Shown here: piece after piece, positions 3,857 through 29,866 of the stretch
How positions within the stretch are numbered: the first letter of the stretch is position 1
How the letters are laid out: every line of letters begins with the position of its first letter
Sequence record: MN022785.1
Length of the DNA stretch: 64,000 nucleotides
Source: Escherichia phage VEc20
Direction: 5' to 3' (one strand)
Program-made: the position numbers and the translations under genes
Notes under the pieces: model-generated
Database searches by the model: none
What the model saw: only the letters and a program-made list of their open reading frames with translations
Told to the model about the DNA's origin: nothing

Positions 3857-4095
3857 TGGAAGGTTTAATTGAAGCTATTAAATCAAACGACCTCGTAGCC
3901 GCTCGTAAATTATTTGCTGAAGCCATGGCTGCAAGAACGACTGATTTAATTAAAGAAGAAAAAATCGCTATCGCTCGTAATTTCTTAATCGAAGGTGAAG
4001 AACCTGATGACGAGGATGATGACGAAGACGAAGATAGTGATGATAAAGACGACAAAAAAGACAAAGACTCTGACGAAGACGAGGATGATGAATAA
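3856..4095 (+). CDS. 67: prohead core protein with polyacidic C-terminus
   Basis: 79 aa, D/E-rich tail; ATG overlaps gene 20 stop (TAATG). Confidence 0.75.
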
Positions 4096-4520
4096 TGCTT
4101 CTGATCCCTGAAACTCATGAATTAGTTCTCGAGAATGTCGAAGCACTTATTCCTGAAGCACAGGGTCGCTTTGACGAATTGTCTTCTGCTTTAAATAAAG
4201 ACGATATAAATACAATTGTCGAGAATATGCTTGATGATGAAACTGATTTAGCGGTTGCATTAGCTTCTATTAATGAAAATATGCCGTTAAATGAATTTAT
4301 CGTTAAACATGTTTCCGCCCGTGGTGAAATTACTCGCACTAAAGACCGCAAAACGCGTGAACGTAATGCATTTCAAACCACTGGGCTGTCTAAAGCAAAA
4401 CGTAGACAAATTGCTCGTAAAGCTACCAAAACGAAGATTGCCAATCCAGCAGGTCAATCTCGTGCTCAGCGTAAGCGTAAAAAAGCTCTTAAACGCCGTA
4501 AAGCATTAGGATTAAGCTAA
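4095..4520 (+). CDS. 68: prohead core protein
   Basis: 141 aa, basic C-terminus; start overlaps gp67 stop; synteny. Confidence 0.7.
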
Positions 4521-5158
4521 TGAATGAACCCCAATTACTAATTGAAACTTGGGGTCAACCTGGCGAAATTATTGATGGCGTACCAATGCTTGAATCTCAC
4601 GATGGAAAAGACTTAGGTTTAAAACCGGGTTTATACATCGAAGGAATATTCATGCAAGCGGAAGTCGTCAATAGAAATAAACGTCTTTATCCAAAACGTA
4701 TATTAGAAAAAGCGGTAAAAGACTATATTAATGAGCAAGTTTTAACTAAACAAGCTCTCGGAGAATTAAATCATCCTCCACGCGCTAATGTTGACCCGAT
4801 GCAAGCCGCTATCATTATAGAAGATATGTGGTGGAAAGGAAATGACGTATACGGACGAGCTCGTGTTATTGAAGGTGACCATGGTCCTGGAGATAAATTA
4901 GCAGCTAATATTCGTGCCGGATGGATTCCAGGAGTTTCTTCTCGTGGATTAGGTTCATTGACTGACACGAATAAAGGTTATCGTATCGTAAACGAAGGAT
5001 TCAAATTAACTGTAGGTGTTGATGCAGTATGGGGTCCAAGTGCTCCAGATGCATGGGTAACTCCTAAGGAAATTACCGAATCACAGACGGCGGAAGCCGA
5101 TACAAGTGCCGATGACGCCTATATGGCTCTCGCAGAGGCCATGAAAAAAGCGTTATAA
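4520..5158 (+). CDS. 21: prohead core protease
   Basis: 212 aa; position between 68 and 22; resembles T4 gp21 from memory. Confidence 0.85.
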   Translation: MNEPQLLIETWGQPGEIIDGVPMLESHDGKDLGLKPGLYIEGIFMQAEVVNRNKRLYPKRILEKAVKDYINEQVLTKQALGELNHPPRANVDPMQAAIIIEDMWWKGNDVYGRARVIEGDHGPGDKLAANIRAGWIPGVSSRGLGSLTDTNKGYRIVNEGFKLTVGVDAVWGPSAPDAWVTPKEITESQTAEADTSADDAYMALAEAMKKAL

Positions 5159-24118: not shown

Positions 24119-26215
24119 TTATCCTTGAACGAACTTGTAAGGCATGTTTGTAATATCTATGCAAGACGCAATAATTCCAAGAGATGATTCGACTTTCTGT
24201 TTAACATTTGATGAAACAAATGATGCAAAATCAACTCTATCTTCTATTTCAATATCACCAGTCATTGCAACTACTTCACCAGTTTCCATTAGACGGTCAC
24301 CGTCATAAATTACTGATTCGGTGAGTTCTTCCGTAGTCATAACTTCAGCTTGAATGAGTTTTGTATTATTAGATGTTGTTCCGTCGTTATTAGAAGCATC
24401 AGTTATTTTATTGACTTTGACCATCAATCCACGCGGTAGAATAACTTCAGCTTCTGTTGCTATTCCGAGACTTCCTGGATATACAACATTAACTTTATGA
24501 GCTCCATCAATTGCCCATCCTATTTGAACTTTAACGTATTCAGGATTTTCTTTATACGCTCTTATTTCGTTTGGATTAATAGTTATTCCTTCTTCATTTT
24601 TATCAACTGTTAATTCATTGCGAGCTTCTGGTTCTAAAAGACCAATACCAGCATGTGTAATTCCAAAACGTCCAAAAATGATAGGAGTTAAAGAAGTAGA
24701 TACAAAATTTCTGAAATAGAATACTTTATTTTTAACTAGTGCTTCGTATATAGGAGCAGTCATACTTTGAGCACGATAAACTGTAATGCCTTCTGGTATA
24801 CGATCACCATTTTCAAAAGCAGAATCTAAATTAGTTATAGCAGCTTCAATTTCTTTTTCACTCATTACTTCATAACGTTCTGGATCATAACGACCCAAAA
24901 GAAGATTATTGATGTCAGTATATCCTGAACCGCAATACTCTCTAATGCCACGCTTTTGTGATGGAGTATATTTAGAACCATCACGGGCAATAGTAATATC
25001 AATCATTGGACCTGCACCAATTCCAGAGAAACTATAAATCATTCTTTTGAGGAATTTAGTTTTTGTCGCGTTCCAGGAATTTTTAGTTATTTCTTCCCAG
25101 ACTTCATCTGGCTGTCCTTTACGGGTTTTATTATGTTTATCAAGCCAAGTATCTTTATATTCTTCAAATAATTGATTAACAGCTGCTGCGTATTTCTCTA
25201 AACATTTTATTGAAGTAGTCGGTTCATTTTTAATCGCATTAAGAATTACATCTTTAATTTTTTCAGAAACTTCATTAACCTCACTTTTTGAAAAGAATTT
25301 ATAGTCATAATGAAGTTCATCTGCAGTTCCTTCGGCAATGATTTTTGCTGCCTTAGTTTTAGAAGCTAATGAATTAATTCCAATTTTCATTTCTTCTGCT
25401 TCGGGAATTAAAGGTGCAGTAGCTGGTTTATTAAAATTAGCTGCTGTAGATTCATACTTCTGGAATAATTCACTTTCAAATCTAGAAGACTCTAATGATT
25501 GACTTTGTGCAATTGCTCTACGGGAAATTTTAACTTTAACGATTACAGCTTGGTCAGAACGTTTATCATTTTCTTGTGCAATAGATGCTGCAATTGCCTC
25601 ATTTTTAGTTACTTGAGCTCCAGTATCTTTATTGATATAAACATCACCGACCTTCGATTCAACTTTAGTAAAGAGCTCGGTACTAATTTCCGGAACCCCT
25701 GGAATGTCTTCTAGTGATACATTTTTGCGATGTATAAGAATATATGCATACTTTTTATCATAATCCCAGAGTTCCTTAAGAAGGACGTATCTGCCACCTG
25801 AACGACTACGGATAAGTCTATCAGCAATAACTTGAATTTGTCGAGCTTGACCAGCAGTTTTAGACTTAAGAATACGGAGCATACAGGCATCAATTTTATA
25901 CTGACGCATTGTTTGCATTGCAACAGTAAAAACCGAATTGATATAATTAATTGGGCTTGGACCAAGACCTTTCAATTTAGCAATTGAACCTTTAGCGGTT
26001 AATGTAAAAGGAACAATATGCATCATTTTATCGCCCATCTTTAAATCACGATTAGTATCACCTCCAGATGTATAGGTACATAAACGAAAGCCTGGTTGTT
26101 CAATTGCATCATCAACATGAACTGAAAAAATTTGTGGTATTTTCTTCTTTGGATTTAAGTTTGTAATCGGAAGAGTAGTATCTTCGTCAAATAATTCTGT
26201 AATTAGTTCCATCAT
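24119..26215 (-). CDS. alt: Alt ADP-ribosyltransferase (virion-packaged)
   Basis: 698 aa; N-terminus MELITELF...; resembles T4 Alt from memory; synteny. Confidence 0.85.
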   Translation of the reverse strand: MMELITELFDEDTTLPITNLNPKKKIPQIFSVHVDDAIEQPGFRLCTYTSGGDTNRDLKMGDKMMHIVPFTLTAKGSIAKLKGLGPSPINYINSVFTVAMQTMRQYKIDACMLRILKSKTAGQARQIQVIADRLIRSRSGGRYVLLKELWDYDKKYAYILIHRKNVSLEDIPGVPEISTELFTKVESKVGDVYINKDTGAQVTKNEAIAASIAQENDKRSDQAVIVKVKISRRAIAQSQSLESSRFESELFQKYESTAANFNKPATAPLIPEAEEMKIGINSLASKTKAAKIIAEGTADELHYDYKFFSKSEVNEVSEKIKDVILNAIKNEPTTSIKCLEKYAAAVNQLFEEYKDTWLDKHNKTRKGQPDEVWEEITKNSWNATKTKFLKRMIYSFSGIGAGPMIDITIARDGSKYTPSQKRGIREYCGSGYTDINNLLLGRYDPERYEVMSEKEIEAAITNLDSAFENGDRIPEGITVYRAQSMTAPIYEALVKNKVFYFRNFVSTSLTPIIFGRFGITHAGIGLLEPEARNELTVDKNEEGITINPNEIRAYKENPEYVKVQIGWAIDGAHKVNVVYPGSLGIATEAEVILPRGLMVKVNKITDASNNDGTTSNNTKLIQAEVMTTEELTESVIYDGDRLMETGEVVAMTGDIEIEDRVDFASFVSSNVKQKVESSLGIIASCIDITNMPYKFVQG

Positions 26216-26250
26216 ATCCTCTCTAGTGTTTATTCTATTTATAAAATTAA

Positions 26251-26265
26251 AGGCCCGAAGGCCTT
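26251..26265 (-). terminator. GC hairpin AGGCC-CGAA-GGCCT
   Basis: seen in sequence. Confidence 0.35.
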
Positions 26266-26453
26266 TAGTAATCTAGTGGTAAGAGAGTACGATATATTTC
26301 AAACTTTGGTCCTTTTTCATAGGCATCAAATGTTTCTGTAAATTTATTATAAGCGTATGCATCTACAAATTCGAGAATGACTTGTGATACAGAAGTAGAA
26401 ACATCTCCACCTTCTTTTTGAGCAATGACAATTGTTTCTAAGTAAGCTTTCAT
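26265..26453 (-). CDS. hypothetical small protein
   Basis: 62-aa ORF; start overlaps ligase stop. Confidence 0.45.
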   Translation of the reverse strand: MKAYLETIVIAQKEGGDVSTSVSQVILEFVDAYAYNKFTETFDAYEKGPKFEIYRTLLPLDY

Positions 26454-27913
26454 AGACCAGTTACCTCATGAAAATCACCAAATACATCCTCGAATGTATT
26501 AGCTTTAGTTTTATCTTCACGTAAACGAATCGCAATCGGAAGAAATAATTTAACGTAATCAGTGCGGCCATCAGATTTTAACCAACCGTTGCATTCGCAC
26601 TCTAGAATTTTTCCAATATAATAATTTTGGTTTTCCATAATGCGAGTACGGTCAAGTTCATGTGATTTTACACCGGCTTTATCTTTTAAGCCTGAACCAG
26701 CATTTACCTTAATTTTTCCACACTCTGACTCAAGAATAAATCCACCCGCTTTAGTAGGGTCTTTACGGTGAGGATAAATTCCTACAATTTTTAAATCAAC
26801 ATCAATTACTTCTTTAAATTTATAGAGATTTTTTGAACGAGCATTTTCCCATAATCCATCGATATTTTTGAGAATAATACCTTCAAGACCTTGGTCAATA
26901 TACTTTTTATAAATTACCTTAGCTTCATCTAGGTTATTTACTACCTGGTTTTCAATTAAAATTACTTTATCATAGCCTGATGTCATTTGTTCTAGTTTAG
27001 AAAAACGTACATCATATTTTAAACGAAACGCCGGAAGACCGTATATTTCTACCAACGGGACATAATCCCAGACCTGAAACTTCATGCATTGAGCTTCTTT
27101 TTCGGAAATGGTTCCCTTTAAAGATTTATTAGCGATTCCATTAGAAGTAGTACGTGATTCAGCTACTTCGGCGAATTCTTTGGCTTTACTAATTTCAGGA
27201 TAAGCATCAAAAAGAAAATCTAGGCCTTCTGGCTCCTTTTTAACTTGCTCATGGTATACCAATTCGCCATCAATTAACACGCCTTCTGGATGAATCTGGC
27301 GGGCTTCAGCGGTCATTTTGATTAATTCTTCCTTAAGAAGATCTAATCCTAGATATTCATTACCGGCTCGTGATAAAAGACGAACATCATCTAATTCATC
27401 ACCTCTGACTTCGGCAAAGCACCGAGCCCCATCAGCTTTTAACTGGGCAAAGGCTGGAAATTTGATATTCTTATTAATGCCTTTTTCATCATAAGAACTT
27501 GCCAGCATTTGAGGTTGTTCAGGAATTAAACCTGGCCAAACTTTGTTTGCAATAGATACTGAAGCACCACATTCAAGGTCTCGCATCATCACTCGACGCA
27601 AAACTTCAACATCATCTTTTTTACCATCGGTGATATATCCAGTTAATTCCTCAATTGCTGCATTTCCAGTCAATTTCCGAGTAGCTAATGTGAATTCAAT
27701 GAAGTCAAGCATATCGGTAAGAGTCAACATTCCAAAACTCTGGGTAGCAATACCAGGTTTAGGCCATTTCTTGATATAATACTGCAGCCCACGAGAATAA
27801 GTCAGACGATATACTCGTTTAAGCAATTCATTATCTTTATTCTTTTCAAGAATTGCTTGCTTCTGCTTAGTTGAACCAATAGATGCTATTTCGTTCAGAA
27901 TTTTAAGAATCAT
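26450..27913 (-). CDS. 30: ATP-dependent DNA ligase
   Basis: 487 aa; adenylation motif KADGAR; N-terminus matches T4 ligase from memory. Confidence 0.9.
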   Translation of the reverse strand: MILKILNEIASIGSTKQKQAILEKNKDNELLKRVYRLTYSRGLQYYIKKWPKPGIATQSFGMLTLTDMLDFIEFTLATRKLTGNAAIEELTGYITDGKKDDVEVLRRVMMRDLECGASVSIANKVWPGLIPEQPQMLASSYDEKGINKNIKFPAFAQLKADGARCFAEVRGDELDDVRLLSRAGNEYLGLDLLKEELIKMTAEARQIHPEGVLIDGELVYHEQVKKEPEGLDFLFDAYPEISKAKEFAEVAESRTTSNGIANKSLKGTISEKEAQCMKFQVWDYVPLVEIYGLPAFRLKYDVRFSKLEQMTSGYDKVILIENQVVNNLDEAKVIYKKYIDQGLEGIILKNIDGLWENARSKNLYKFKEVIDVDLKIVGIYPHRKDPTKAGGFILESECGKIKVNAGSGLKDKAGVKSHELDRTRIMENQNYYIGKILECECNGWLKSDGRTDYVKLFLPIAIRLREDKTKANTFEDVFGDFHEVTGL

Positions 27914-28179
27914 TGTTCATCCTTCAGAGTTTGGTTTACAGCTCTATTATAAATCAATTCATCATTAAGCTCAGTCAAAGACTTATGATATGTGGTTCTA
28001 ACTTTATTTCCTTGCATCCAGTGCTTGATATAAATGAAACCTTGCTCTACGCATTTTTTAAAAATTCGTTCGTCTTTTTGAGCTCGGAATTCTGGATTGC
28101 ATCTAAAAAATTGATTTACGTGACCGTAATCACGTGTAGTATTACCTTCATTTTCATAAATAGTGTGAACAACAAACAT
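27910..28179 (-). CDS. hypothetical protein
   Basis: 89-aa ORF, overlapping stop/start with neighbours. Confidence 0.5.
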   Translation of the reverse strand: MFVVHTIYENEGNTTRDYGHVNQFFRCNPEFRAQKDERIFKKCVEQGFIYIKHWMQGNKVRTTYHKSLTELNDELIYNRAVNQTLKDEQ

Positions 28180-29018
28180 TAGAATGCTCCTTGGAAAATA
28201 TTATCACCACAAGTAGGTCTATTATACAAATACTCTATACCGCCGGGTTTAATATAGTTCCATGTCTGAAACGGATGTGTCTGATATGGATGATATAGAT
28301 GATTATAAGGATTAAATCCAGGAGTTCTCCAGGTAGTGTTCCAACGAAAAGAATCGTTTTTAATCATCTTTTCAATTACATCTTTTATAGCTTTTTCACT
28401 ATCAAAACTTTCTTTATTTTCCTTTGGTGAAAAAAGCTTATTCTCTACATCGTTCCATGTATAAACTCGCTGAGCAGTTTTTGGAATACTGTCACGTTCC
28501 CCTCGAGCCATCCAATAAACAGGAACACTTAATATTTCACTCGCGTGATCGCAGTGGTGAGCGAGATCGTCAATATAACAAATTACGTTATATTTCTCTT
28601 TTGCCTTTTTGAACAACTCTTCTTTTGAAGAATCATGACCACACATCAGTACTTCTGAGAAGGCACCAGGAAAAAGAGCATTCAAATTAAATTGACGATT
28701 CAGCAGAGCGTCAATAGAATCACCCAGCGCTGTAACAGCTACAAAATTATAATCTTCTTTTAATTTGTTAATTACACACAGAGCATCTTTATATGGAGAC
28801 AAGTAACGAATAAAATCTGAACGATTGTATTTTTCAATTAACTTGACACCAAGTTCTTCATCACAATTAAAAAGTTTACCAGGAGAAATAAATTTTTCAT
28901 CTTGGATCATTTTTAAAATATGTTCCAACGGAAGATTATATTTCTGAGCAAAATAAGGAAGGCCTGATTGCCAGCTTAAACACACTCCATCAATATCAGT
29001 TAAAATAGTAGGCTTCAT
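28179..29018 (-). CDS. HAD-superfamily phosphatase-like protein
   Basis: motif I ILTDIDGV near N-terminus and motif IV YIDD; 279 aa. Confidence 0.55.
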   Translation of the reverse strand: MKPTILTDIDGVCLSWQSGLPYFAQKYNLPLEHILKMIQDEKFISPGKLFNCDEELGVKLIEKYNRSDFIRYLSPYKDALCVINKLKEDYNFVAVTALGDSIDALLNRQFNLNALFPGAFSEVLMCGHDSSKEELFKKAKEKYNVICYIDDLAHHCDHASEILSVPVYWMARGERDSIPKTAQRVYTWNDVENKLFSPKENKESFDSEKAIKDVIEKMIKNDSFRWNTTWRTPGFNPYNHLYHPYQTHPFQTWNYIKPGGIEYLYNRPTCGDNIFQGAF

Positions 29019-29479
29019 AGAGAGTCTCTTAATAGGTTTAACACATCAATAAATTCAGCTTCGGTTAGTATTGTATCATCTTTTGTTAGACCACTAGCCA
29101 TGCTGTGCTTCAAAACTTTTCCTTTCGAGGCTTGTAACGCATCACGAAAGCCCTTGTTTTGGATCGCTGCTTCAAAATATGCATTTGTGTATAATTCTTT
29201 CCACGCCGGGGAGTATCTTGAAAATGGAACTCCAAGCCAGAAGAGGGTTCCACGGTCTTGAGCTCTTGCATAAGACCTTCCAGCTTGTTGGGCGGCAAGC
29301 CCGGATAACCCAAATATACGACGTTGTTGTTCAACGTTTTTCACCTTGCATCCTTGGAGGAATCCTTCAAGACCTCCAAATTGAATACCATCCATAACGA
29401 AAGGCCAATGGGCGAAATTACTTAATGCACATGATGGCCACCTAAAATTGCTTCTAATCTCTAACTCAGACATTTTCAA
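29015..29479 (-). CDS. NADAR (YbiA-like) domain protein
   Basis: ALSNFAHWPFVMDGIQFGGLEGFLQGCK resembles the NADAR/YbiA signature FSNFA.WP..DG....SEH.FQA.K. Confidence 0.55.
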   Translation of the reverse strand: MKMSELEIRSNFRWPSCALSNFAHWPFVMDGIQFGGLEGFLQGCKVKNVEQQRRIFGLSGLAAQQAGRSYARAQDRGTLFWLGVPFSRYSPAWKELYTNAYFEAAIQNKGFRDALQASKGKVLKHSMASGLTKDDTILTEAEFIDVLNLLRDSL

Positions 29480-29672
29480 TGCTTATAATTTCAACATCAG
29501 CCCAATGACCATAGCAAGGAAGACGAAATTCAACTGGCCAGTTAGGGTCCTTTTCTAATATAATAGACTCAACTCGTGGTTCTTCACGTTCATCAGTATA
29601 TGGATTTTTATCTGTTACTTTATATGTGACCTTAATGTACTGAATTCCAAAAATCTTATTAATTATATTCAT
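29466..29672 (-). CDS. hypothetical protein
   Basis: 68-aa ORF. Confidence 0.45.
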   Translation of the reverse strand: MNIINKIFGIQYIKVTYKVTDKNPYTDEREEPRVESIILEKDPNWPVEFRLPCYGHWADVEIISIENV

Positions 29673-29866
29673 ACTAATTCCTTTAATCCGTAGATAGGAG
29701 ATAATTCATCACCCATACGAAGGTCTTCATTTCCATCTACCCAGGAAACAATATAAGCCTCTTTTATTTGAATACCACTCCATTTAAATGGAGGTAGAAC
29801 CTTAGAAATTAATCCAGGTATACCAACTCCCTTTAATTCAACAGTTTGACCTAAAAAGAATTTCAT
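29669..29866 (-). CDS. hypothetical protein
   Basis: 65-aa ORF. Confidence 0.45.
   Translation of the reverse strand: MKFFLGQTVELKGVGIPGLISKVLPPFKWSGIQIKEAYIVSWVDGNEDLRMGDELSPIYGLKELV

What the first reader, a model, noticed from the sequence alone, without database searches (positions are those of the whole stretch)
28179..29479. Adjacent HAD-phosphatase-like and NADAR-domain genes next to ligase and alt: candidate ADP-ribose/NAD-derivative processing module
ORF 28179-29018 has HAD motif I (ILTDIDGV) and a YIDD motif IV. ORF 29015-29479, overlapping it by 4 nt, has the NADAR/YbiA signature (LSNFAHWP...DG...LEGFLQ..K). NADAR proteins are established to hydrolyse ADP-ribose conjugates, including ADP-ribosylated guanine made by DarT-type toxins. 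A phage NADAR plus a phosphatase, co-transcribed in the early region near Alt, could reverse host ADP-ribosylation-based immunity or clean up ADP-ribose products. I cannot tell whether these activities are already characterised for this phage.
Basis: partly seen in the sequence, partly recalled or inferred. Interest (0 to 1): 0.65.

Follow-up and report, generated by a model that had tools for sequence, protein, structure and literature searches.

The report
T4 adfN and its phosphatase neighbour
The two genes are real, but the NADAR gene is phage T4's already characterised anti-DarT factor AdfN, and the neighbouring phosphatase-like gene (30.2) travels with DNA ligase rather than with AdfN and is not needed for that counter-defence.

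Summary
The window is a Tequatrovirus (T4-like) genome. The two ORFs are T4 genes 30.2 (279 aa, 98% identical to T4) and 30.3 (152 aa from the ATG at 29473; 150/152 identical).

Gene 30.3 is adfN, "anti-DarT factor NADAR". Published work shows it removes ADP-ribose from guanine in DNA and is necessary and sufficient for T4/T2 resistance to DarTG1. Here I confirmed the NADAR fold, the catalytic E36/K43, the phage-subfamily H123 and the intact C-terminal helix. This half is correct but already known.

Gene 30.2 is an uncharacterised HAD phosphatase. All four catalytic motifs are invariant across the family, the model has a Rossmannoid core with a helical C1 cap, and the sequence links point to 5'(3')-deoxyribonucleotidases (NT5C).

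The "module" idea is not supported:
- 30.2 sits next to DNA ligase in 61 of 61 related loci, but has AdfN nearby in only 28.
- AdfN lies about 59 kb away in Klebsiella phage Mineola.
- Published T4 transposon sequencing on DarTG1 depletes 30.3 (log2FC -7.25) but not 30.2 (-0.12, p=0.61).

What remains open is the substrate of 30.2 and why it is tied to ligase.

The parts
29015..29473 (-). Gene 30.3 = adfN (anti-DarT factor NADAR), 152 aa. Catalytic E36 (29366-29368), K43 (29345-29347) and H123; C-terminal helix at residues 138-151 intact.
   Evidence: Pfam PF08010 Phage_30_3, E=7.7e-70. 150/152 identical to T4 gp30.3. AF2 pLDDT 93. The top three Foldseek PDB hits are the three NADAR structures 2b3w, 8bau and 8bat. 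The family profile hits YbiA at E=0.0056. Published function: PMC11825919.
28179..29018 (-). Gene 30.2, 279 aa. The N-terminal ~200 aa form a HAD phosphatase domain: motif I D8-x-D10-G-V, motif II T96, motif III K132, motif IV D150-D151, with a helical C1 cap at residues ~13-88. The C-terminal ~80 aa are a variable tail predicted to be disordered.
27910..28179 (-). Gene 30.1 (DUF3045), 89 aa, between 30.2 and the ligase gene. Its start shares 1 nt with the 30.2 stop (TAATG).
   Evidence: Pfam PF11243, E=4.3e-64. Present in 24 of 61 related loci.
26450..27913 (-). Gene 30, ATP-dependent DNA ligase: the constant genomic partner of the HAD gene.
   Evidence: Matches the T4 annotation. A ligase lies within 497 bp downstream of the HAD gene in 61 of 61 loci, and abuts or overlaps it in 21. 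The linkage also holds in divergent contigs.
29466..29672 (-). Gene 30.4, 68 aa, upstream of adfN. Its stop overlaps the adfN start by 8 nt (ATGTCTGA).
   Evidence: The T4 orthologue is mildly depleted on DarTG1 (log2FC -1.79, padj 0.014), most simply a polar or translational-coupling effect on adfN.
24119..26215 (-). alt, the packaged RNA-polymerase ADP-ribosyltransferase. It is a neighbour only and not part of the AdfN function.
   Evidence: It has no DarTG1 phenotype in T4 (log2FC -0.01).

Best explanation
These are two independent enzymes encoded in one tightly packed run of early-region genes. Genes 30.4, 30.3, 30.2, 30.1 and 30 have overlapping start and stop codons. I infer that they are co-transcribed; this was not tested.

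(1) Gene 30.3 is AdfN. It is a stand-alone NADAR-fold ADP-ribosylglycohydrolase of the phage gp30.3 subfamily (catalytic Glu36, Lys43, His123). During infection it hydrolyses the N-glycosidic bond between ADP-ribose and guanine that the host toxin DarT1 places on phage DNA, so replication can proceed in DarTG1 hosts. It does not bind the toxin and does not act on DarT2's thymidine adducts. This is shown for the T4 protein, which differs at 2 of 152 non-catalytic positions, and is inferred for this copy.

(2) Gene 30.2 is a Mg2+-dependent HAD phosphatase. Asp8 is the nucleophile, Asp10 the general acid/base, and T96, K132, D150 and D151 complete the site. Its helical C1 cap encloses the active site. 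By the general rule for HAD enzymes, a cap of this kind points to a small phospho-metabolite rather than a macromolecule. The nearest relatives by sequence profile are 5'(3')-deoxyribonucleotidases, so the most likely substrate is a (deoxy)nucleoside monophosphate. The HAD fold and motifs are shown here; the phosphatase chemistry, the cap rule and the substrate class are inferred or rest on my own knowledge.

Gene 30.2 belongs to the replication and nucleotide-metabolism gene set and is genomically tied to DNA ligase, not to AdfN. It is dispensable on E. coli K-12 and for DarTG1 counter-defence.
For: AdfN:
- Pfam PF08010 at E=7.7e-70.
- 150/152 identity to T4, with E36 and K43 kept.
- E36 and H123 invariant and K43 >=90% conserved in 50 relatives.
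- 7 of 50 relatives hit Pfam NADAR; the profile hits YbiA.
- High-confidence model whose only significant PDB matches are NADAR structures.
- Literature: deletion, complementation, E36A/K43A mutants and in-vitro de-ADP-ribosylation (PMC11825919); in-vitro guanine-ADPr specificity and the subfamily histidine (PMC11125620); T4 transposon sequencing on DarTG1.

gp30.2:
- Invariant D8, D10, G11, K132; >=90% T96, D150, D151. The D/D/R/K/D core persists in relatives at ~20-35% identity.
- Model pLDDT >90 over residues 1-200, with six cap helices between motifs I and II.
- The only PDB sequence hit of the family profile is mouse cdN 2jao (E=0.09).
- NT5C is the commonest Pfam hit among distant members (15 of 40, best 4.7e-9).
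- Ligase linkage holds in 61 of 61 loci and survives a change of gene order. Other contexts are dCMP deaminase, RNase H and clamp loader.
- Non-essential in T4: 72 of 72 TA sites were hit. No DarTG1 phenotype.
- Precedent for a phage mdN-like HAD acting as a dTMP phosphatase (PMC12697855).
Against: - For gp30.2 no enzymatic or genetic data exist. No paper in the library contains 'gp30.2'.
- The window protein itself hits no Pfam HAD or NT5C model at any useful threshold. The NT5C link is transitive and sub-threshold for most members.
- An invariant Arg108/Asn111 pair and the ~80-aa tail have no counterpart that I could assign.
- The ligase linkage is not explained by a simple nucleotidase role.
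- Conserved synteny among Straboviridae could account for part of that linkage without any functional coupling.
Confidence: 0.8

Rival explanations
1. The HAD phosphatase and AdfN form one co-evolving module: AdfN releases ADP-ribose (or a phosphorylated derivative) and gp30.2 dephosphorylates or detoxifies the product, so both contribute to resistance against ADP-ribosylation-based immunity.
For: - The genes overlap by 4 nt and are presumably co-transcribed.
- Both families are nearly universal in Straboviridae, with almost identical genus counts.
- When AdfN is near the HAD gene it is always just upstream.
- A distant HAD homologue in a Vibrio jumbo phage lies two genes from a nicotinamide phosphoribosyltransferase.
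- Redundancy with host or T4 Nudix enzymes could hide a phenotype.
Against: - 30.2 insertions are neutral on DarTG1 while 30.3 insertions are lost.
- Purified AdfN works alone in vitro.
- AdfN is within 6 kb in only 28 of 61 HAD loci. It sits in the tRNA cluster about 59 kb away in Mineola and next to gp47 in KVP40.
- None of the distant HAD contexts examined contains a NADAR gene.
- The closest enzyme relatives are nucleotidases, not sugar-phosphate or ADPr-phosphate phosphatases.
Confidence: 0.07
2. gp30.2 is a DNA-end-healing enzyme that serves the ligase. It would remove 3'-phosphates (or another blocking phosphate) at nicks so that gp30 can seal them, like the HAD phosphatase domain of T4 polynucleotide kinase or eukaryotic PNKP.
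For: - Ligase adjacency is invariant, 61 of 61, and holds even when gene order is reversed.
- Weak hit to the PHROG polynucleotide-kinase family (E=0.0036).
- One distant member hits Pfam HAD_PNKP.
- The invariant Arg108 could bind a backbone phosphate (speculative).
Against: - The ~75-residue helical C1 cap is typical of small-molecule HADs. From my own knowledge, macromolecule-directed HADs such as PNK are capless or minimally capped, and the PNK match covers only the core (126-129 residues).
- T4 already has PseT for this reaction.
- NT5C hits far outnumber PNKP hits (15 versus 1).
- 30.2 is fully dispensable whereas ligase is essential.
Confidence: 0.1
3. gp30.2 is a catalytically dead HAD-fold protein, or a decaying accessory gene with no function.
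For: It is non-essential in T4, matches no Pfam model directly, and has a variable tail that is often absent.
Against: All catalytic residues are invariant across about 1350 50%-identity clusters and more than 1400 phage genomes. That pattern indicates purifying selection on an active site.
Confidence: 0.03

Closest known systems
AdfN of phage T4 (gp30.3; Johannesman et al., Nat Commun 2025, PMC11825919)
   Same: It is the same gene in the same position, 150/152 residues identical. E36, K43, H123 and the C-terminal helix that RB69 lacks are all present.
   Different: Only Q22H and I125M, both at non-catalytic positions. Activity of this exact allele was not measured.
DarG1 / BC4488-type NADAR antitoxins and E. 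coli YbiA (PDB 8bat, 8bau, 2b3w)
   Same: Same NADAR alpha+beta fold and the same catalytic Glu/Lys motif (SNF...DG...sxEhxxQaxK). From the literature, the same chemistry on guanine-ADPr.
   Different: It is an orphan with no linked DarT. It belongs to the distinct gp30.3 subfamily, which has His instead of Asp or Glu in the last strand. Only 15-19% identical. It has its own Pfam family, PF08010, rather than PF08719.
5'(3')-deoxyribonucleotidases cdN/mdN (Pfam NT5C, PDB 2jao, 2i7d, 1q92) and the phage PBS1 dTMP phosphatase Dtm
   Same: HAD core with a helical C1 cap and a DxDGV motif I. Eight residues after the nucleophile, an aromatic residue (W16) aligns with the Phe of mouse cdN in the HMMER alignment. 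These are the best-fitting structures and the commonest Pfam hit among relatives. There is precedent for a phage enzyme of this fold dephosphorylating dTMP.
   Different: Only 14-21% identical. The window protein does not reach the NT5C threshold. It has an extra ~80-aa tail, an invariant Arg108/Asn111 pair, and strict linkage to DNA ligase. Its substrate is unknown.
Phosphatase domain of T4 polynucleotide kinase (PseT; PDB 1ltq, 5uj0)
   Different: PNK has essentially no cap and acts on DNA/RNA 3' ends, whereas gp30.2 has a large C1 cap. Sequence similarity is marginal.

Membership tests
NADAR superfamily (phage gp30.3 / AdfN subfamily) | NADAR alpha+beta fold | tested here: met
   The AF2 model has pLDDT 93.3. 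The top three Foldseek PDB hits are YbiA 2b3w (E=8.5e-5, TM 0.67), PnNADAR 8bau and Geobacter NADAR 8bat; nothing else scores below E=1.
NADAR superfamily (phage gp30.3 / AdfN subfamily) | Catalytic Glu and Lys in the (E)GFLQxxK motif, plus the subfamily-specific His in the last strand | tested here: met
   E36, K43 and H123 are present. E36 and H123 are invariant and K43 is >=90% conserved in 50 relatives. Their roles are taken from PMC11825919 and PMC11125620.
NADAR superfamily (phage gp30.3 / AdfN subfamily) | Sequence-profile membership | tested here: met
   PF08010 scores 233.5 bits against a cut-off of 36. 7 of 50 relatives also hit PF08719 NADAR. The family profile hits YbiA at E=0.0056.
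NADAR superfamily (phage gp30.3 / AdfN subfamily) | Full-length C-terminal helix required for full anti-DarTG1 activity (lost in RB69) | tested here: met
   The gene has no frameshift, and residues 138-151 are helical in the model. The requirement itself is from the literature.
NADAR superfamily (phage gp30.3 / AdfN subfamily) | Hydrolysis of guanine-ADP-ribose on DNA and protection from DarTG1 | not testable with these tools
   Shown for T4 and T2 proteins that are 98-99% identical. Not measured for this allele.
HAD (haloacid dehalogenase-like) phosphatase superfamily | Four catalytic motifs: I DxDx(T/V), II S/T, III K, IV (D/E)D | tested here: met
   D8-I-D10-G-V12, T96, K132 and D150-D151 are invariant or >=90% conserved in 39 relatives. 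D, D, K and D remain invariant in 40 distant relatives.
HAD (haloacid dehalogenase-like) phosphatase superfamily | Rossmannoid HAD core fold with a cap insertion | tested here: met
HAD (haloacid dehalogenase-like) phosphatase superfamily | Match to a curated HAD profile | tested here: inconclusive
   The window protein hits no Pfam or NCBIfam HAD model. 10 of 39 close and 12 of 40 distant relatives hit PF00702 below its threshold.
5'(3')-deoxyribonucleotidase family (Pfam NT5C) | Profile membership and a nucleotide-binding cap | tested here: inconclusive
   The window protein has no hit. 6 of 39 close and 15 of 40 distant relatives hit PF06941 (best 4.7e-9). The family profile hits mouse cdN at E=0.09, with W16 aligned to the cdN Phe eight residues after the nucleophile. 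The structural fit is good but not unique.
5'(3')-deoxyribonucleotidase family (Pfam NT5C) | dNMP phosphatase activity | not testable with these tools
   No biochemical data exist for gp30.2.
   AdfN lies within 6 kb in 28 of 61 HAD loci, whereas ligase does in 61 of 61. AdfN lies elsewhere in Mineola and KVP40. No NADAR gene is present in the distant contexts examined.
   This rests on published data read here, not a new experiment. In T4 HIDEN-SEQ, control versus DarTG1, 30.3 has log2FC -7.25 (padj 0) and 30.2 has -0.12 (p=0.61). DarTG2 gave a single hit, tk.4.

The most novel reading that the evidence does not exclude
gp30.2 may be a dedicated partner of the phage ATP-dependent DNA ligase that has so far gone unrecognised. 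It would be a capped HAD phosphatase whose substrate is tied to nick sealing or to a nucleotide by-product or alarm signal of phage DNA metabolism, for example a modified dNMP released during host-DNA breakdown. Its loss would then matter only on natural hosts that carry defences or stresses absent from E. coli K-12. The strict ligase linkage across Straboviridae, which persists when gene order changes, and the invariant Arg108/Asn111 pair are not explained by a generic nucleotidase role.
Probability: 0.15. Interest if true: 0.55.

Novelty: already known. Interest (0 to 1): 0.2.

Why it matters
The main claim, that a phage NADAR reverses host DNA ADP-ribosylation, is true and important. It was published in 2023-2025 for this very gene, so the finding adds nothing new there.

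The practical prediction for this window is that the phage carries an intact adfN allele and should plate on DarTG1 hosts.

What is left is modest. Gene 30.2 is one of many conserved T4 genes of unknown function. This analysis gives it a defensible enzyme class (NT5C-like HAD phosphatase), shows that its evolutionary partner is DNA ligase rather than AdfN, and defines a short list of substrates to test.

Tried and rejected
- Direct Pfam and NCBIfam scans of the 279-aa protein, also at E<=10, gave nothing useful. The only hits were chance-level ones to thiamine pyrophosphokinase.
- PDB sequence searches gave only marginal hits with the single sequence and with the profile.
- The AdfN single sequence gave nothing against PDB sequences. 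A family profile and a predicted structure were needed.
- The literature search for 'gp30.2' returned no paper. One broad search was uninformative, and several searches failed on term-length rules.
- I first read the absence of AdfN from 33 of 61 HAD loci as lack of co-occurrence. The genome-wide tblastn corrected this: both genes are near-universal in Straboviridae, but AdfN moves around the genome.
- A scan for loci of very distant HAD relatives failed because the alignment had no conserved block. I replaced it with individual contig look-ups.
- The promoter and terminator scan was at background level and was not used beyond noting the hairpin after alt.1.
- Reading the LB-versus-M9 sheet of the transposon data for 30.2 missed the relevant rows, and I did not pursue it further.
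- I considered and rejected the idea that the 279-aa ORF is a run-on artefact. The tail is 98% conserved with T4, and a GIEYLxNxPT-like motif recurs in relatives that are 46-49% identical.

Full report
**What the window is.** The region 27900-29700 is 99.8% identical to Escherichia phage EC128 and Yersinia phage fPS-90, and it matches 653 T4-like records. Gene order around the finding reproduces T4 exactly: cd, 31.2, 31.1, 31, rIII, 30.9 ... 30.4, 30.3, 30.2, 30.1, 30 (DNA ligase), alt.1, alt, all on the minus strand.

**Checking the observation.** The ORF at 28179-29018 encodes 279 aa, 98% identical to T4 gp30.2. It contains ILTDIDGV at residues 5-12 and YIDD at 148-151. The ORF at 29015-29479 is open from a TTG. 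T4 annotates the ATG at 29473, giving 152 aa that are 150/152 identical to T4 gp30.3. The two genes overlap by 4 nt (ATGA). Upstream, the 30.4 stop overlaps the 30.3 start by 8 nt. Downstream, 30.2/30.1 share 1 nt and 30.1/30 share 4 nt.

**The NADAR gene is adfN, and its function is published.**
- Pfam places the protein in PF08010 (Phage_30_3) at E=7.7e-70.
- Johannesman et al. (Nat Commun 2025, PMC11825919) mapped DarTG1 resistance of T-even phages to gene 30.3 and renamed it adfN.
- They showed that deleting it from T4 and T2 abolishes plating on DarTG1, and that expressing it rescues RB69, whose own allele is frameshifted and lacks the last helix.
- E36A and K43A mutants weaken the rescue, and purified protein removes ADP-ribose from DarT1-modified DNA. 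AdfN does not bind DarT1 and does not counter DarTG2.
- An independent biochemical study (PMC11125620) showed guanine-ADPr-specific hydrolysis by the T4 protein. It defined the phage gp30.3 subfamily by a histidine in the last strand.
- A transposon-sequencing preprint found 30.3 insertions lost on DarTG1.

**What I confirmed here for this allele.**
- E36, K43 and H123 are present. E36 and H123 are invariant and K43 is at least 90% conserved in 50 relatives.
- 7 of 50 relatives hit Pfam NADAR directly, and the family profile hits E. coli YbiA.
- The AF2 model (pLDDT 93) has the three solved NADAR structures as its top three PDB matches; YbiA (2b3w) is the only hit below E=0.001, and nothing else scores below E=1.
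- The C-terminal helix is intact.
- GenBank already annotates an identical protein as "NADAR domain containing protein" next to a "putative phosphatase".

**The HAD gene (30.2).** No curated profile recognises the protein directly, PHROGs files it as unknown, and no paper in the library mentions gp30.2.
- *Motifs.* An alignment of 39 relatives shows D8, D10, G11, K132 invariant and T96, D150, D151 at least 90% conserved. Those are the four HAD motifs. Also conserved are W16, S18, R108, N111 and R172.
- *Family size.* An exhaustive profile search finds about 1350 clusters at 50% identity, mostly stand-alone proteins of 190-220 aa. In 40 distant members the D/D/R/K/D core is still invariant.
- *Model.* Confidence is high for residues 1-200, with six helices between motifs I and II forming a C1 cap. 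Confidence is low for the ~80-residue tail.
- *Subfamily.* The best-fitting structures with the highest identity are 5'(3')-deoxyribonucleotidases. The only PDB sequence hit of the family profile is mouse cdN. NT5C is the commonest Pfam match among distant members (15 of 40, best 4.7e-9).
- *Precedent.* A phage enzyme of this fold, PBS1 Dtm, is a dTMP phosphatase.

From this I infer an active, capped, small-molecule phosphatase, most probably a nucleotidase. The substrate is not established.

**Is there a module?** Four lines of evidence say no.
1. In 61 viral loci carrying a 30.2 homologue, DNA ligase follows within 497 bp in all 61, and abuts or overlaps in 21. An AdfN homologue lies within 6 kb in only 28.
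2. Both families are near-universal in Straboviridae: 1452 and 1510 phage records, with nearly identical genus counts. In the two AdfN-distant genomes I examined, AdfN is present but lies elsewhere. In Klebsiella phage Mineola it sits in the tRNA cluster about 59 kb from the HAD-ligase pair, and in KVP40 it sits beside gp47. Genome-level co-occurrence is therefore confounded by shared ancestry, and adjacency is lineage-specific.
3. In more distant phages the HAD gene keeps its link to ligase, even with the order reversed. Elsewhere it sits by dCMP deaminase, RNase H or clamp loader. It is never beside a NADAR gene.
4. The T4 transposon data give a direct genetic test. On DarTG1 only two genes are significant:
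   - 30.3, log2FC -7.25;
   - 30.4, log2FC -1.79, most simply a polar effect because its stop overlaps the adfN start.

   By contrast, 30.2 (71 TA sites) has log2FC -0.12 with p=0.61, and alt and 30.1 are also neutral. Gene 30.2 is fully dispensable on K-12, with 72 of 72 TA sites hit, while ligase is essential.

**Verdict.** The NADAR interpretation is correct but already established experimentally for this gene. The HAD assignment is correct, and the protein remains uncharacterised. The proposed joint ADP-ribose-processing module is not supported. The only open question of some interest is what the ligase-linked HAD phosphatase does. I rate the whole finding as already known, with low overall interest.

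Noticed in passing
window 29466-29672 (gene 30.4) and its 8-nt overlap with the adfN start at 29466-29473: In published T4 transposon data, 30.4 is the only gene besides adfN significantly depleted on DarTG1 (log2FC -1.79, padj 0.014). Its stop overlaps the adfN start (ATGTCTGA). This is probably translational coupling or a polar effect, but a genuine helper role is not excluded.
   Followed up: partly
window 29110-29334, minus strand, inside adfN in another frame: This is the T4-annotated overlapping gene 30.3'. A stretch of 76 codons stays open in the +1 frame in the window, in T4 and in most relatives with ~85% identical AdfN; in one relative it is shortened to 61. Codon-order shuffles reach this length in about 3% of trials, so the evidence for a real product is weak.
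   Followed up: partly
window 28179-28420 (C-terminal ~80 aa of gp30.2): The tail is predicted disordered (pLDDT <50) and rich in aromatic and proline residues. It is absent from most relatives. A motif like G-x-G-(T)GIEYLxNxPT recurs in about ten relatives that are only 46-57% identical. It may be a docking peptide; its partner is unknown.
   Followed up: no
gp30.2 residues R108 and N111 (window about 28686-28696): The Arg is invariant and the Asn nearly so, even in relatives at ~20% identity, alongside the catalytic D/D/K/D. Neither belongs to the canonical HAD motifs, so they may bind a second anionic group of the substrate.
   Followed up: no
P0013 (metagenomic relative of gp30.2, 302 aa): This protein is a fusion of the HAD domain (without the tail) to a DUF3045/gp30.1 domain. 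It is either a real fusion that links 30.2 and 30.1 functionally, or a frameshift in a short contig.
   Followed up: no
AdfN relatives P0104-P0107, P0113-P0118, P0149, P0193: Many natural T-even relatives carry truncated AdfN (83-126 aa) or chimeras with gp30.7, gp30.8 or PF11097. Together with the published RB69 frameshift, this suggests adfN is often lost or recombined. Even so, 1503 of 1510 phage records keep at least 80% coverage.
   Followed up: partly
L065 (Vibrio phage 6E35-1b, 253 kb) 4004-4576: A distant gp30.2 homologue (35% identity over 151 aa) lies two genes from a nicotinamide phosphoribosyltransferase, on the opposite strand. This is the only NAD-related context seen for this HAD family.
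   Followed up: no
P0252 (591 aa) and P0309 (660 aa), L068: In these metagenomic proteins the gp30.2-type HAD domain is fused to large N-terminal regions with no Pfam match. P0252's N-terminus contains an FGDLDIII stretch that, by eye, resembles nucleotidyltransferase motifs.
   Followed up: no
window 26248-26267, minus strand: A terminator-like hairpin (TAAAGGCCTTCGGGCCTTTA followed by a T-rich run) lies just downstream of alt.1 and before alt. It is the only good candidate end for the 30.x-ligase-alt.1 transcription unit.
   Followed up: no
phrog_652 profile versus window 29015-29473: AdfN matches positions 126-272 of a 296-position PHROG profile, and some relatives are 201 aa long (P0131, P0133). 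Some family members therefore carry an N-terminal extension of ~50-125 aa of unknown nature.
   Followed up: no
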